Shown: positions 12,040 to 37,172 of the stretch, in pieces
Layout of the letters: the number at the start of each line of letters is the position of its first letter
Position numbering within the stretch: position 1 is the stretch's first letter
Assembly (NCBI GenBank): GCA_951406725.2
Contig: OX597817.1
Coordinates: 13,764,001 to 13,828,000 of the forward strand
DNA: 64,000 bases
Direction: 5' to 3'
Source of the DNA: Octopus vulgaris
Taxonomy: Eukaryota
Position numbers and translations under genes: made by a program
Notes under the pieces: model-generated
Seen by the model: only the letters and a program-made list of their open reading frames with translations
Database searches by the model: none
Told to the model about the DNA's origin: nothing

Positions 12040-12732
12040 GGAGAAAATAATGTGGAAACGTGGTTTTTCCTAGAGAGTTCGTTAATCCGACACCTGCAGT
12101 TTTTACAAGCTTATCGGTACCAAAAAACCAGTGCTATCGAAAAGATTTATTGCATAATTTTTTTTATATATATAAAAAAGAACAACACAAAAGGAAACTA
12201 AAACGGAAAAAATAACTGAGTCTTTTGTTGAAGATGTGGCACTCATTACAATCTATAACACCACCTGATGTAGCACGTGTTGAGTGCCGTGCTGGGTGTC
12301 ACACGACGGTGTCAACGAGCAAACCTAAACCAATATAGCACGTGTTGAGTATCGTGTTAGGTGTCACGCTGCTGTTCCATCCAAGAAATCATAATTCATA
12401 GAGACAGAAAAAAAAAAAAAAGTGAAATCATAAAAAATAAATAAAATAGATAACAAACTACGAAATATATTACAATATTTAATGCAAGCAGAATTCTGTT
12501 GTTTTAAATAAAAATCTGAATCTACTCAGAGCCATAAAAAACCCCCCAAAGCAATAAACAAATCATGATAGATAAGATAAAAAAAAGGAAAGAGTGAAAA
12601 GTGACACAAAATAGATAAGCGATGTAATAATTAATAGTTTAAAGTATCTTTTTAGAACACTGGATCTCGAAGCACGTAGCTCTCTAAATTATAGCATGTA
12701 AATATTGGGCTGAAAAAATCCCCCTTTGTATA

Positions 12733-13336
12733 TATTTCTTTATTGCCCACAAGGAGCTCAACACAGAGGGGGACAAACAAGGACAGACAAACGGATTAAG
12801 GCGATTACATCGACCCCAGTGCGTAACTGGTATTTTATTTATCGACCCTGAAAAGATGAAAGGCAGAGTCGACTTCGGCGTAATTTGAACTCAGAACGTA
12901 ATGGCAGACGAAATATCTACTTCTTTACTACCCACAAGAGGCTAAATACAGAGAGGACAAACAAGGACAGACAAACGGATTAAGGCGATTACATCGACCC
13001 CAGTGCGAAACTGGTACTTTATCTATCGATCCCGAAAGGATGAAAGTCAGAGTCGACCTCGGCGGAATTTGAACTCAGAACGTAATGGCAGACGAAATAC
13101 CTATTTCTTTACTACCCACAAGGGGCTAAACACAGAGAGGACAAACAAGGACAGACAAACGGATTAAGTCGATTACATCGACTCCAGTGCGTAACCGGTA
13201 CTTAATTTATCGACCCCCGAAAGGATGAAAGGCAAAGTCGACCTCGGCGGAATTTGAACTCAGAACGTAACGGCAGACGAAATACGACCACGCATTTTGC
13301 CCGGCGCGCTAACGTTTCTGCCAGCTCGCCGCCTTA
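12733..13336 (-). mobile_element. SINE family B, tandem trimer (one head plus three body/tail units)
   Basis: Head aaggcggcgagctggcagaaacgttagc, B box gagttcaaattcc, core gcctttcatcctttcggggtcgataaa. The ~187-bp headless unit is repeated. Confidence 0.9.
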
Positions 13337-15397: not shown

Positions 15398-15445
<48 letters not shown>

Positions 15446-15564
15446 GAGAGAAAGAGAGAGAGAGAGAAAGAGACAGACTGACAGAAATTGAACCAGTACT
15501 TCTTTAGGGTCCAAACCCTTTGTGTGCCAAGTACTGTGTTTGATTTCTTTTCTCTTTAGCAATA

Positions 15565-15631
<67 letters not shown>

Positions 15632-15735
15632 AGAAACAGACAGACAGACAGACAGGAATTGAACCAGTACTTCTTTAGGGTCCAAACCCTTTGTGTGCCA
15701 AGTACTGTGTTTGATTTCTTTTCTCTTTAGCAATA

Positions 15736-15814
<79 letters not shown>

Positions 15815-16045
15815 AGAAACAGACAGACAGACAGACAGTACTTCTTTAGGGTCCAAACCCTTTGTGTGCCAAGTACTGTGTTTGATTTCTTTTCTCTTTA
15901 GCAATAAGTGAGAGATAGAGAGACACAGAGACAGAGAGAGAGAGAGAGACAGAGACAGACAGACAGAGAGAGAGAGAGGGAGACAGAGAGAGAGAGAGTA
16001 GGGAAAAGAGAGAGAGAAATCGAACCAGTATTTCTTTATGGTCTT
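15310..16045. repeat. Minisatellite: ~170-180-bp unit with a variable (GA)n tract, three clear copies plus degenerate flanks
   Basis: cagtacttctttagggtccaaaccctttgtgtgccaagtactgtgtttgatttcttttctctttagcaataag occurs near 15494, 15665 and 15836. Confidence 0.9.
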
Positions 16046-17180: not shown

Positions 17181-17251
<71 letters not shown>

Positions 17252-17253
<2 letters not shown>

Positions 17254-17490
17254 TCTTTTACTTGTTTCAGTCATTTGACTGCGGCCATGCTGGAGCACCG
17301 CCTTTAATCGTGCAACTCGACCCCAGGACTTATTCTTTTGTAAGCCCAGTACTTATTCTATCGGTCTCTTTTGCCGAACCACTAACGGGGACATAAACAC
17401 ACCAGCATCGGTTGTCAAGCAATGCTAGGGGACAAACACAGACACACAAACACACACACACGCACACATATATATATACATATATACGAC
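17252..17490 (-). mobile_element. SINE family A, 3' half
   Basis: Reverse complement of the 13853-14257 tail region. Confidence 0.85.
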
Positions 17491-17539
17491 GATATATATA
17501 TGCGTGTGTGTGTGTGTGTGTGTGTGTTTGTATGTGTGT

Positions 17540-17971
17540 TAAATAAAATGAAACATCAAAAACAAGGCTGTGTGGAATTTATAGGACATTTATAAAGAGA
17601 AAGGTTGCCTTACAGCTGTTTCTGAGATATTAGGGATATCCCTTCATCAGGGACGATATGAGAGAGTTAACTAGAAGGAGATAGTTGAGTTCAATATAAG
17701 GAGTTGTTTTGGAAAAGAATGGATACAGGAAGTATAAAGGGAAATAAAAGAATAGATATAAAAGCAAAAATATATGTTGGATGTTACAGTTGCAGTTCCG
17801 TTATCCAAAGAAAGTTCTGTGTAGAATGGGTAGAAATGCTTCTAGTATGTAGATTACGTCCCTGATGAAGGGATATCCCTAATATCCTCGAAACAGCTGT
17901 AAGACTACCTTTCTCTTTATAATGCCCTATAAATTCCATACACCCTTGGCTTTGTTGTCTCACTTTATTTA
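17540..17971. mobile_element. Inverted-repeat element with a hammerhead ribozyme core in each arm
   Basis: Arms 17540-17655 and 17857-17971. Plus-strand core CTGATGA(17862-17868)-aggGATAT..ATATCCtc-GAAAC-agct-GTA(17899-17901); mirror copy on the minus strand at 17611-17650. Confidence 0.8.
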
Positions 17972-18401
17972 GCATATACATGCTCACACAAGACTCGCAT
18001 TAGACTCCTCATTCGTATTATTATCGAACCGAGAGTCTAATTACCGCCTTCCCGTAGCACTTACGTAGCCTTACCTGCCATCTTGGGCCTTCTGGATACC
18101 AATACCTCTCATATATATATATATATATACATGTGTGTGTGTGTGTGTGTGTTGAGTGTTTCTGTTTCACTTTAGAGCAGTTCATTTTTTTAAAACTCCG
18201 ACACAGTTTATAAGGTGATACATAAGCACTCAACTATGAGTATATTGCATCTTATCACAGAAACGTCTGTAAGATAATGAAGTTCATTACATAAATTCTT
18301 ATTCCCTTGTCATTTATATAATCTCTTGTTACTGATCTGTACTCGATTATCGCTTTTCTCTCAAACATACGTATATTGTATAGCTATGTTTAAGCGATAT
18401 A

Positions 18402-18727: not shown

Positions 18728-18792
18728 AGCTATGCTTAAGCGATATATATACATGCATACATGCATACATACATATATATATATATATATAT

Positions 18793-19150
18793 TAGCGGTT
18801 CGGCAAAAGAGACCGATAGAATAAGTACTAGGCTTACAAAGAATAAGTCCCGGGGTCGATTTGCTCGACTAAAGGTGGTGCTCCAGCATGGCCGCAGTCA
18901 AATGACTGAAACAAGTAAAAGAGTAAAAGAGAGAGTATACATATATGTGCGTATGTGTGTGTATTTGTGTTTGTCCCCCATCACCACTTGACAACCGGTG
19001 TTGGTGTGTTTACGTCCCTGTAACTTAGCAGTTCGACATAAAGACCAATAGAATAAGTACTAGGCTTTAAAAAGTCCTCGAGTCGATTTGTTCGACTAAA
19101 ACCCTTGAAGGTGGTATTCCAACATGGCCGCCGTCAAATGACTGAAACAA
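18793..19150 (+). mobile_element. Two SINE family A 3' fragments in tandem
   Basis: 18793-18935 is near-identical to the family tail; 18950-19150 is a more diverged copy. Confidence 0.8.
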
Positions 19151-19491: not shown

Positions 19492-19897
19492 TTGGCAGAA
19501 ACGTTAGCACGAAGGGCGAAATGCTTAGCGGTATTCCGTCTGCCGTTACGTTCTGAGTTCAAATTCCGCCGAGGTCGACTTTGCCTTTCATCCTTTCGGG
19601 GTCGATAAATTAAGTACCAGTCGCGCACTGGGGTGGATATAATCGACTTAATCCGTTTGTCTGTCCTTGTTGGTCCCTTCTGTGTTTAGCCCTTTGTGGG
19701 TAGTAAAGAAATGGGTATTCCGTCTGCCGTTACGTTCTGAGTTCAAATTTCGCCGAGGTCGACTTTGCCTTTCATTCTTTCGGGGTCGATTAAATAAGTA
19801 CCAGTTACGCACTGGGGTCGATGTAATCGACTTAATAACTATGTCTGTCTGTGTTTGTCCTCTCTATGTTTAGCCCCTTGTGGTCAATAAAGAAATC
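19492..19897 (+). mobile_element. SINE family B, tandem dimer
   Basis: Two body/tail units; TSD agaaatcga at 19483-19491 and 19898-19906. Confidence 0.9.
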
Positions 19898-35818: not shown

Positions 35819-36755
35819 TCTGATATATAAGGTGGAGCAAAAGCCACGCACCACCCTAATCGCGGGAAAACCGTTTATATGATTATATACGATAATCTTT
35901 TATCTTATTTACATAATATTCATTATTTTATTAGTGCACAACTTTTGTGTCAACCTGTGCATTACATATAGAAATGTATTATATGCATATATCTGTTTGT
36001 ACACACACACACACACACACACAAATGCATGTGAATCACATGGGGATTTTTATCTCGAACGGTTTCTTTTCTTTGTTCTATGCTTGTAACTCTGATTTAC
36101 CAACTCCGTTCGATATTCACCATGTTTTGAAAAATTGTCAGTCATAGAGCCGTGTCTTATCTTATACATCCACTACTAATTTCAGGCGGGTATTTATTTT
36201 CTAGGTCCCTACATATCGATAGGCTAAAATACCTTTTGATGGTAAAAATTCACACATACACACACACAGAGCCGTTTTATATCTCAACTAACGCGATTGA
36301 CTACTTTATATTCTTTGTCATAGAGGATTCGGGTTTCCTTTTTTTCGTACACAACCTGACGAGGAACAGAATGTTCGAAACAGAACGTTCCTTTGAAATA
36401 AGATCACATACATTTTGTCGTATCAGGTTGACTGTATTCTTCTTGTAAAGACTTGCATCGAAGCCCCAAATTATTCATAATTTATATTAGCATTGCTGTG
36501 TAGATCTCGTGGTTAAGAATAATTATGAGGTAATCACTGCGGAGTAATTATGTCTTGTTACCGAGTGTGCACACACACACACACGCGCTCAAACAAGCTC
36601 TCACATATTTCTTCTTTAAAAGGTTTCATTTATTAGATAGCGGCCAGATTCAGGAATCCCTACCGAGAGTTTTGGTCAAACATGTTAATTCCACTACTAA
36701 TTTCAAGCGGGTACTTATTTTCTAGGTCCCTACATAACGATAGGCTAAGATACCT

Positions 36756-37172
36756 ATTTCTTTACTACCCACAAGGGGCTAAACACAGAGGGGACAAACA
36801 AGGACAGACAAAGGGTTTAAGTCGATTATATCGACCCCAGTGCGTAACTGGTACTTAATTTATCGACCCCGAAAGAATGAAAGGCAAAGTCGACCGCGGC
36901 GGAATTTGAACTCAGAACGTAACGGCAGATAAAATACCTATTTCTTTACTACCCACAAGGGGCTAAACACAGAGAGGACAAACAAGGACAGACATAGGTA
37001 TTAAGTCGATTATATCGACCCCAGTGCGTAACTGGTACTTAATTTATCGACCCCGAAAGGATGAAAGGCAAAGTCGACTTCGGCGGAATTTGAACTCAGA
37101 ATGTAACGGCAGACGAAATACGGCTACGCATTTCGCCCGGCGTGCTAACGATTCTGCCAGCTCGCCGCCCTT
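36756..37172 (-). mobile_element. SINE family B, tandem dimer
   Basis: Two units; 18-bp TSD cgataggctaagat(a/g)cct at 36738-36755 and 37173-37190. Confidence 0.92.

What the first reader, a model, noticed from the sequence alone, without database searches (positions are those of the whole stretch)
17540..17971. Two hammerheads facing outward in the arms of one inverted-repeat element
Seen: ~115-bp inverted arms about 200 bp apart, each carrying CTGATGA-stem II-GAAACAGCTGTA. A transcript from either strand would contain one sense ribozyme and could also fold back, pairing the ribozyme with its antisense arm. Inference: either a TIR-like arrangement of Penelope-type terminal repeats, or an element whose cleavage competes with hairpin (dsRNA) formation. 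The arms have diverged from each other while the core letters are kept.
Basis: partly seen in the sequence, partly recalled or inferred. Interest (0 to 1): 0.75.

Follow-up and report, generated by a model that had tools for sequence, protein, structure and literature searches.

The report
Back-to-back ends of a Penelope retrotransposon
This is two truncated tail-ends of a common jumping gene joined back to back, likely in a single insertion long ago, so the two outward-facing ribozyme motifs are an ordinary, already described footprint of this class of element and likely not an RNA switch.

Summary
The inverted arms and both hammerhead motifs are real. They are two 5'-truncated 3' ends of a Hydra-clade Penelope-like retroelement (about 1,900 ends in this genome), joined head to head at 17856. 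Near-complete copies carry the reverse transcriptase and GIY-YIG motifs of that clade. The pair is not a mobile unit: its junction occurs once in the genome, and other pairs have their own. Such pairs are common (22 of 79 insertions sampled independently of the ribozyme). In 59 of 62 pairs exactly one arm carries a 139-nt extension, which fits reverse transcription from two fixed RNA start sites, one per target strand (inferred). A cleavage-versus-hairpin switch is unlikely: the antisense arm is always transcribed first, folding the ribozyme costs 60-69 kcal/mol, both copies have a mismatch beside the cut site, and this ribozyme type needs a same-strand partner. Against a purely dead reading, the core is better conserved than its flanks across the family and within pairs. 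Opposite-strand hammerhead pairs and one-sided tails are in print, and this scan noted the two-start footprint for other families in this genome.

The parts
17504..17539 (.). (GT)n microsatellite flank; reads (AC)n outward from the tailless end
   Evidence: (AC)n follows 92 of 157 tailless ends
17540..17855 (-). Left copy: 5'-truncated 3' UTR/pLTR of a Hydra-clade Penelope-like element, about 310 nt, ending at family end-point 1 (TTTATTTA), no tail
   Evidence: (locus L246)
17607..17654 (-). Minimal type I hammerhead motif of the left copy; core intact, A.C mismatch at the first pair of helix I, G-U pairs in helices I and II; predicted cut between 17611 and 17610
17856..17857 (.). Head-to-head junction, unique in the genome
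   Evidence: 1 match with up to 2 mismatches
17857..17971 (+). Right copy: last 115 nt of the same pLTR, truncated just upstream of the hammerhead
17858..17905 (+). Minimal type I hammerhead motif of the right copy; core intact, same A.C mismatch in helix I; predicted cut after 17901
17972..18110 (+). 139-nt tail: the sequence between pLTR and ORF in near-complete copies, ending at family end-point 2
   Evidence: alignment to L171, L172
18111..18130 (.). (AT)n microsatellite flank of the tailed end
   Evidence: (AT)n follows 58 of 88 tail ends

Best explanation
The feature is two 5'-truncated 3' ends of a Hydra-clade Penelope-like retroelement joined head to head, likely made in one old insertion in which both strands of a cut microsatellite primed reverse transcription. 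Shown: family identity, two fixed end-points 139 nt apart, one tailed and one tailless arm in nearly every pair, unique junctions, arms of a pair from the same subfamily. Inferred: the element's GIY-YIG endonuclease cut both strands of a (TG)n/(TA)n tract; one 3' end primed at RNA site 1 (followed by ACAUA), the other at site 2 (followed by AUA); both cDNAs stopped early and were joined at their ends. Each arm carries the hammerhead only because it lies about 110-70 nt inside end-point 1. The ribozyme likely works as a dimer in tandem element RNA; these two copies have probably been decaying since insertion.
For: Walk upstream reaches RT and EN with Hydra diagnostics RWK, DKT, YRDD, CxCX5C, CxxC/CxH (definitions in PMC8557442 section 11). 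59 of 62 pairs tail/no-tail, 3 no-tail/no-tail, 0 tail/tail; 33 of 36 in the two samples not anchored on the tail. 12 of 74 single tailless arms still have an inverted tail fragment at their 5' end. Shared derived sites 3.1% within pairs vs 1.2% shuffled, 0 of 2000 shuffles reach it; 639 of 730 concordant at subfamily columns vs 61% expected. Flank type follows end type (AC 92 / AT 32 / other 33 vs AC 6 / AT 58 / other 24). The tailless arm is longer in 22 of 59 pairs and the tailed in 19, which one-way fold-back copying cannot give. In vitro, Poseidon_Ac cuts and extends both strands from two internal start sites that delimit the tail (PMC11167929).
Against: 57 of 79 insertions show one arm only, so two-sided synthesis is not always visible. 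18 of 59 pairs have near-symmetric junctions against 5.4 expected, which fits self-priming at palindromes as well as end-annealing. Hammerhead core differences within pairs are fewer than neutral decay predicts (11 vs 25 in pairs not found through the hammerhead, p = 0.001; 25 vs 61 in all), unexplained by a single-template, decay-only history. PMC11167929 found no homology between cut site and start site, and no strand preference for either start site. No empty target site was found. No tree was built.
Confidence: 0.8

Rival explanations
1. Same element, but the second arm arose by self-priming or fold-back of one cDNA (or on an antisense template) at a local palindrome, as proposed for rotifer Penelopes.
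For: PMC3846280 discussion passage. Excess of symmetric junctions, 18 of 59 vs 5.4, several at the element's own palindromes. Overlapping junctions in 27 of 62 pairs.
Against: In this window and 22 of 59 pairs the tailed arm is the shorter one at its 5' end, and the longer arm has no tail to copy. Fold-back gives no reason for the second arm to stop exactly at end-point 1 beside a different microsatellite.
Confidence: 0.12
2. The pair is a functional RNA switch: a read-through transcript either self-cleaves or folds into dsRNA for editing or small RNAs, and selection keeps the cores.
For: Cores intact in both arms. Core conserved over flanks in the family (83 vs 137 expected) and within pairs. 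The hairpin is predicted to be very stable, so dsRNA would form if the locus is read through.
Against: Folding the ribozyme in the read-through costs 60.5 and 69.3 kcal/mol; on either strand the antisense arm is made first; both arms have an A.C mismatch beside the cut site; helix III is unstable as a monomer (+1.4 vs -11.1 kcal/mol as dimer) and each strand has one sense copy. Only 16 of 59 pairs keep two intact cores. Single minimal PLE hammerheads showed no cleavage in PMC4209133.
Confidence: 0.04
3. The inverted pair is itself a mobile unit (MITE-like or hairpin retrozyme).
For: Several loci match the query over its whole length.
Against: Junction unique; among 59 pairs only one couple shares both 5' ends within 5 nt; arms differ at their outer ends (tail on one only).
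Confidence: 0.02

Closest known systems
Hydra-clade Penelope-like elements (Craig et al. 2021, PMC8557442), e.g. Penelope-13_HM, Hydra-1_Obim
   Same: RWK, DKT, CxCX5C, CxxC/CxH motifs; 3' hammerhead with an extra base each side of helix II; (TA)n targets; Penelope-13_HM is listed with an inverted 5'-truncated copy and a hammerhead on both strands.
   Different: A different family from Hydra-1_Obim (other hammerhead, other N-terminus by eye); unit about 4 kb vs mostly under 3 kb; tail 139 nt vs 30-40; one end borders (AC)n.
Minimal type I hammerheads of metazoan PLEs (Cervera and de la Pena 2014, PMC4209133)
   Same: Helix I 4 bp, helix II 7 bp, unpaired base 5' of helix II, palindromic helix III; the paper reports dual motifs about 100-700 bp apart on opposite strands.
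   Different: A.A (or U.U in a subfamily) flanks helix II; window copies have a helix I mismatch.
Poseidon_Ac (Frangieh et al. 2024, PMC11167929)
   Same: Two internal start sites delimiting a tail taken from sequence downstream of the pLTR; both strands cut and extended; templates run through the hammerhead.
   Different: Other clade; start sites adjacent rather than 139 nt apart; no microhomology reported there, whereas flanks here match the bases after each end-point.
Adineta vaga Pen2a (Arkhipova et al. 2013, PMC3846280)
   Same: Head-to-head inverted pLTRs, tail on one of them.
   Different: Single-copy examples; authors favour self-priming; clear target duplications there, none resolvable here.

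Membership tests
EN+ Penelope-like element | RT followed by C-terminal GIY-YIG endonuclease | tested here: met
   RT motifs then EN in L171, L172, L174, all broken copies; Pfam hits weak and below cut-off: RVT_1 E 0.02, GIY-YIG E 0.003
EN+ Penelope-like element | pLTR upstream of ORF (partial tandem) and inverted 5'-truncated copies | tested here: met
   L171, L172 pLTR+tail+ORF; 62 inverted pairs
EN+ Penelope-like element | Optional tail at one end | tested here: met
   139 nt, longer than the published 30-40
Hydra clade | RWK and DKT motifs | tested here: met
   RRMRWK and FSDKT in L171
Hydra clade | CxCX5C linker; CxxC and CxH around E and N; no CCHH | tested here: met
   CICHPGTTC, one Cys between IY and YIG in L182; CKLCLKE and CKH in L045
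Hydra clade | Hammerhead near 3' end; (TA)n insertion bias | tested here: met
   tailless end more often borders (AC)n
Hydra clade | Length generally under 3 kb | tested here: not met
   about 4 kb in L171; a tendency in the paper, not a criterion
Hydra clade | RT phylogeny; absence of IFD | not tested
   no tree built
Minimal type I hammerhead | Core CUGANGA/GAAA/UH with helices I, II and palindromic III | tested here: met
   family majority fully paired; window arms have one helix I mismatch; no Rfam hit
Minimal type I hammerhead | Self-cleavage | not testable with these tools
   needs an in vitro assay
Non-LTR retrozyme | Tandem non-coding monomers, one hammerhead each | tested here: not met
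   no tandem array here; sequence continues into a coding element
MITE / TIR element | Repeated copies of the whole inverted unit with identical ends | tested here: not met

The most novel reading that the evidence does not exclude
The Hydra-clade reverse transcriptase writes its own flanking microsatellite: at each start site it reiterates the template dinucleotide, telomerase-like, adding (TG)n at site 1 and sometimes (GA)n at site 2 onto a (TA)n target, so this element would be a source of the genome's (AC)n tracts. Hints: AC tracts after tailless ends are longer (median 20 vs 10 nt) and more often followed by (AT)n (28 of 78 vs 99 of 547), and some tail ends run into (TC)n then (TA)n. Compound targets, target duplication or later slippage explain this equally well, and the empty-site test gave no support (2 of 10 vs 41 of 141).
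Probability: 0.1. Interest if true: 0.7.

Novelty: new member of a known kind. Interest (0 to 1): 0.24.

Why it matters
As a locus it is ordinary. As a family it gives a countable genomic test of how Penelope-like elements make their inverted ends: one tailed plus one tailless arm in 59 of 62 pairs, each beside its own microsatellite type, links the two in vitro start sites to the two target strands. The long tail makes the two sites easy to tell apart. Such insertions also scatter hundreds of 50-400 bp hairpins that would be editing or small-RNA substrates if transcribed.

Tried and rejected
Rfam: whole-window scan listed only microsatellite-driven hits among the 150 of 339 rows shown; local scan no hammerhead. 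Sequencing runs: no RNA holder listed; contigs laid from 8 of 24 runs match other family copies at 85-95% and none spans the stretch, so nothing on expression, strand, editing or ends of this locus. Empty target sites: none usable among 45 pairs with flanks searched against held loci; native-microsatellite test inconclusive. Target duplication: (AT)n(GT)n on both sides in only 3 of 40 pairs including this one. Pile-up of 5' ends at the ribozyme cut site: 5 of 56 tailed, 2 of 101 tailless within 4 nt, too weak to use. An in-script majority of the ORF region stayed broken and was not used for motifs. Lunse et al. 2017 on dimeric PLE hammerheads is not held; nothing is taken from it. One of 63 pairs (L267, a distant spurious pairing) was dropped, giving 62. 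In one search no arm was called in 2 of 60, 1 of 82 and 14 of 38 loci; the last are at least partly tail-only pieces. Host gene context was not resolved (one search lists ORFs only).

Full report
Observation. The window lies in a 2.8-Gb, microsatellite-rich animal genome; the one database homolog of the element's RT is labelled Octopus bimaculoides, 71% identical over 44% of the query. The arms 17540-17655 and 17857-17971 align over 115 nt with 13 substitutions. Each holds CUGAUGA, a 7-bp helix II flanked by an extra base on each side, GAAA, the palindrome ACAGCUGU and the triplet GUA. Rfam does not score it.

What it belongs to. A genome search with the element gave 109 matches from 40 scored of 2,834 candidates, most covering only the first 307-319 nt. 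Copies extend both ways. Walking upstream led through a long 3' UTR into a GIY-YIG domain and then an RT. L171 and L172 show pLTR end, 139-nt segment, ORF, endonuclease and 3' UTR, about 4 kb, all with stops and frameshifts. They carry RRMRWK, FSDKT, FDINNYY, YRDD, CxCX5C, CxxC and CxH and lack the two cysteines of CCHH, which are the diagnostics of the Hydra clade in PMC8557442 (section 11 read, other passages and parts of the supplement seen). It is not Hydra-1_Obim, whose hammerhead differs. 509 exact matches to a 21-mer, present in 58 of 215 arms not selected by it, give roughly 1,900 ends.

Architecture. I sampled loci by three exact patterns, taking hits largely in genome order: hammerhead (60 loci), end-point 1 (82) and tail end (38). 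In the end-point sample 22 of 79 distinct insertions are head-to-head pairs and 57 single; in the hammerhead sample 14 of 57. Over all 308 loci there are 62 distinct pairs: 59 have one tailed and one tailless arm, 3 have none, none has two. Tail-anchored loci bias this upward, but the two other samples give 33 of 36 (the two samples overlap slightly). A further 12 of 74 single tailless arms have an inverted tail fragment at their 5' end. Truncation points vary; the window's junction occurs once in the genome. So the inverted pair is a recurrent insertion product and not a unit that moves.

One event. Arms of a pair share derived bases (3.1% vs 1.2% in shuffled pairs, 0 of 2000) and agree at 639 of 730 subfamily-diagnostic positions against 61% expected. 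They still differ by 12%, so there is no sign of ongoing homogenisation. The window pair shares one derived base, U to C at ribozyme position 2.1, which opens the helix I pair next to the cut site.

Mechanism. Tailless ends are followed mostly by (AC)n and tail ends by (AT)n; in element RNA the next bases are ACAUA and AUA. I infer that the two 3' ends of a cut microsatellite each primed at the matching site, giving two cDNAs that were joined at their truncated ends. PMC11167929 (first two of four parts read) shows for Poseidon_Ac cutting and extension of both strands, two internal start sites delimiting the tail, and no need for ribozyme cleavage; it reports no homology at the start site and does not discuss inverted copies. 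PMC3846280 (passages) describes head-to-head pLTRs with a tail on one and prefers self-priming. Fold-back cannot make the 22 of 59 pairs, this one included, where the shorter arm has the tail, but the excess of symmetric junctions (18 vs 5.4) leaves room for it in a subset.

The switch idea. With outward-facing motifs the antisense arm is transcribed before the sense ribozyme on both strands. Forcing the ribozyme fold costs 60.5 and 69.3 kcal/mol; helix III is unstable as a monomer and stable as an intermolecular duplex. PMC4209133 (first two of four parts read) found single minimal PLE hammerheads inactive and already reports dual motifs 100-700 bp apart on opposite strands; Penelope-13_HM is tabulated with a hammerhead on both strands. 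Of 59 pairs 16 keep two intact cores, 22 one, 21 none.

Result against my reading. The core is better conserved than context-matched flanks: 83 changes vs 137 expected in 188 arms not found through the hammerhead (ratio 0.60; flank blocks 0.72-1.31), 83 vs 120 with a stricter filter (0.69; flank blocks 0.69-1.27). That fits selection on source elements. But differences within pairs are also reduced (11 vs 25, p = 0.001). Two related template RNAs, mutation biases in low-complexity flanks or real constraint after insertion could each explain it; I could not separate them.

Novelty. The arrangement is in print. Six paper searches listed no paper whose title or abstract start gives the one-tail-per-pair count or repeat addition by a PLE RT; the library lacks most subscription journals, only the listed papers named above were read, and supplementary figures were not seen. 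The preprint 10.64898/2026.07.22.740005 was read in its first of five parts and PMC9977147 in passages; neither changed the reading. Earlier notes of this scan describe the same two-start footprint for other families in this genome; I had the counts before looking, and did not check their loci. Verdict: a new family member of a known kind, interest low.

Noticed in passing
window 36356-36389 (+): A second CUGACGA...GAAAC motif with a 4-bp helix II candidate, unrelated to this family; helices I and III were not obvious by eye.
   Followed up: partly
window 17251-17460 and 18792-19021: Two copies of an abundant short repeat flank the element in inverted orientation about 1.4-1.5 kb apart (82-96% complementary); a larger hairpin would enclose the element if read through.
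   Followed up: no
family hammerhead, bases flanking helix II: A.A in 71 of 123 arms, U.U in 20, A-U in 13; U.U is the usual form in Hydra magnipapillata families.
   Followed up: partly
L171:5300-5480, L182:4300-4600: Asparagine/threonine-rich stretch between RT thumb and endonuclease linker, like the N-rich inserts of rotifer Penelopes.
   Followed up: no
L045, L047 between endonuclease and 3' UTR: The element carries an internal (TA)n/(CA)n tract of about 300 nt, where several copies break off.
   Followed up: no
L182, L183, L185, L191: A related subfamily about 70-75% identical with its own 3' end shares the genome.
   Followed up: no
L288 (G000:C1:96706500-96713000), L270: Outward-facing arms about 5 kb apart, possibly pairs split by a later insertion.
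   Followed up: no
window 12729-13284, 19530-19896, 36746-37121; 15401-15995: Tandem arrays of a 184-nt repeat and of a 171-nt repeat.
   Followed up: no
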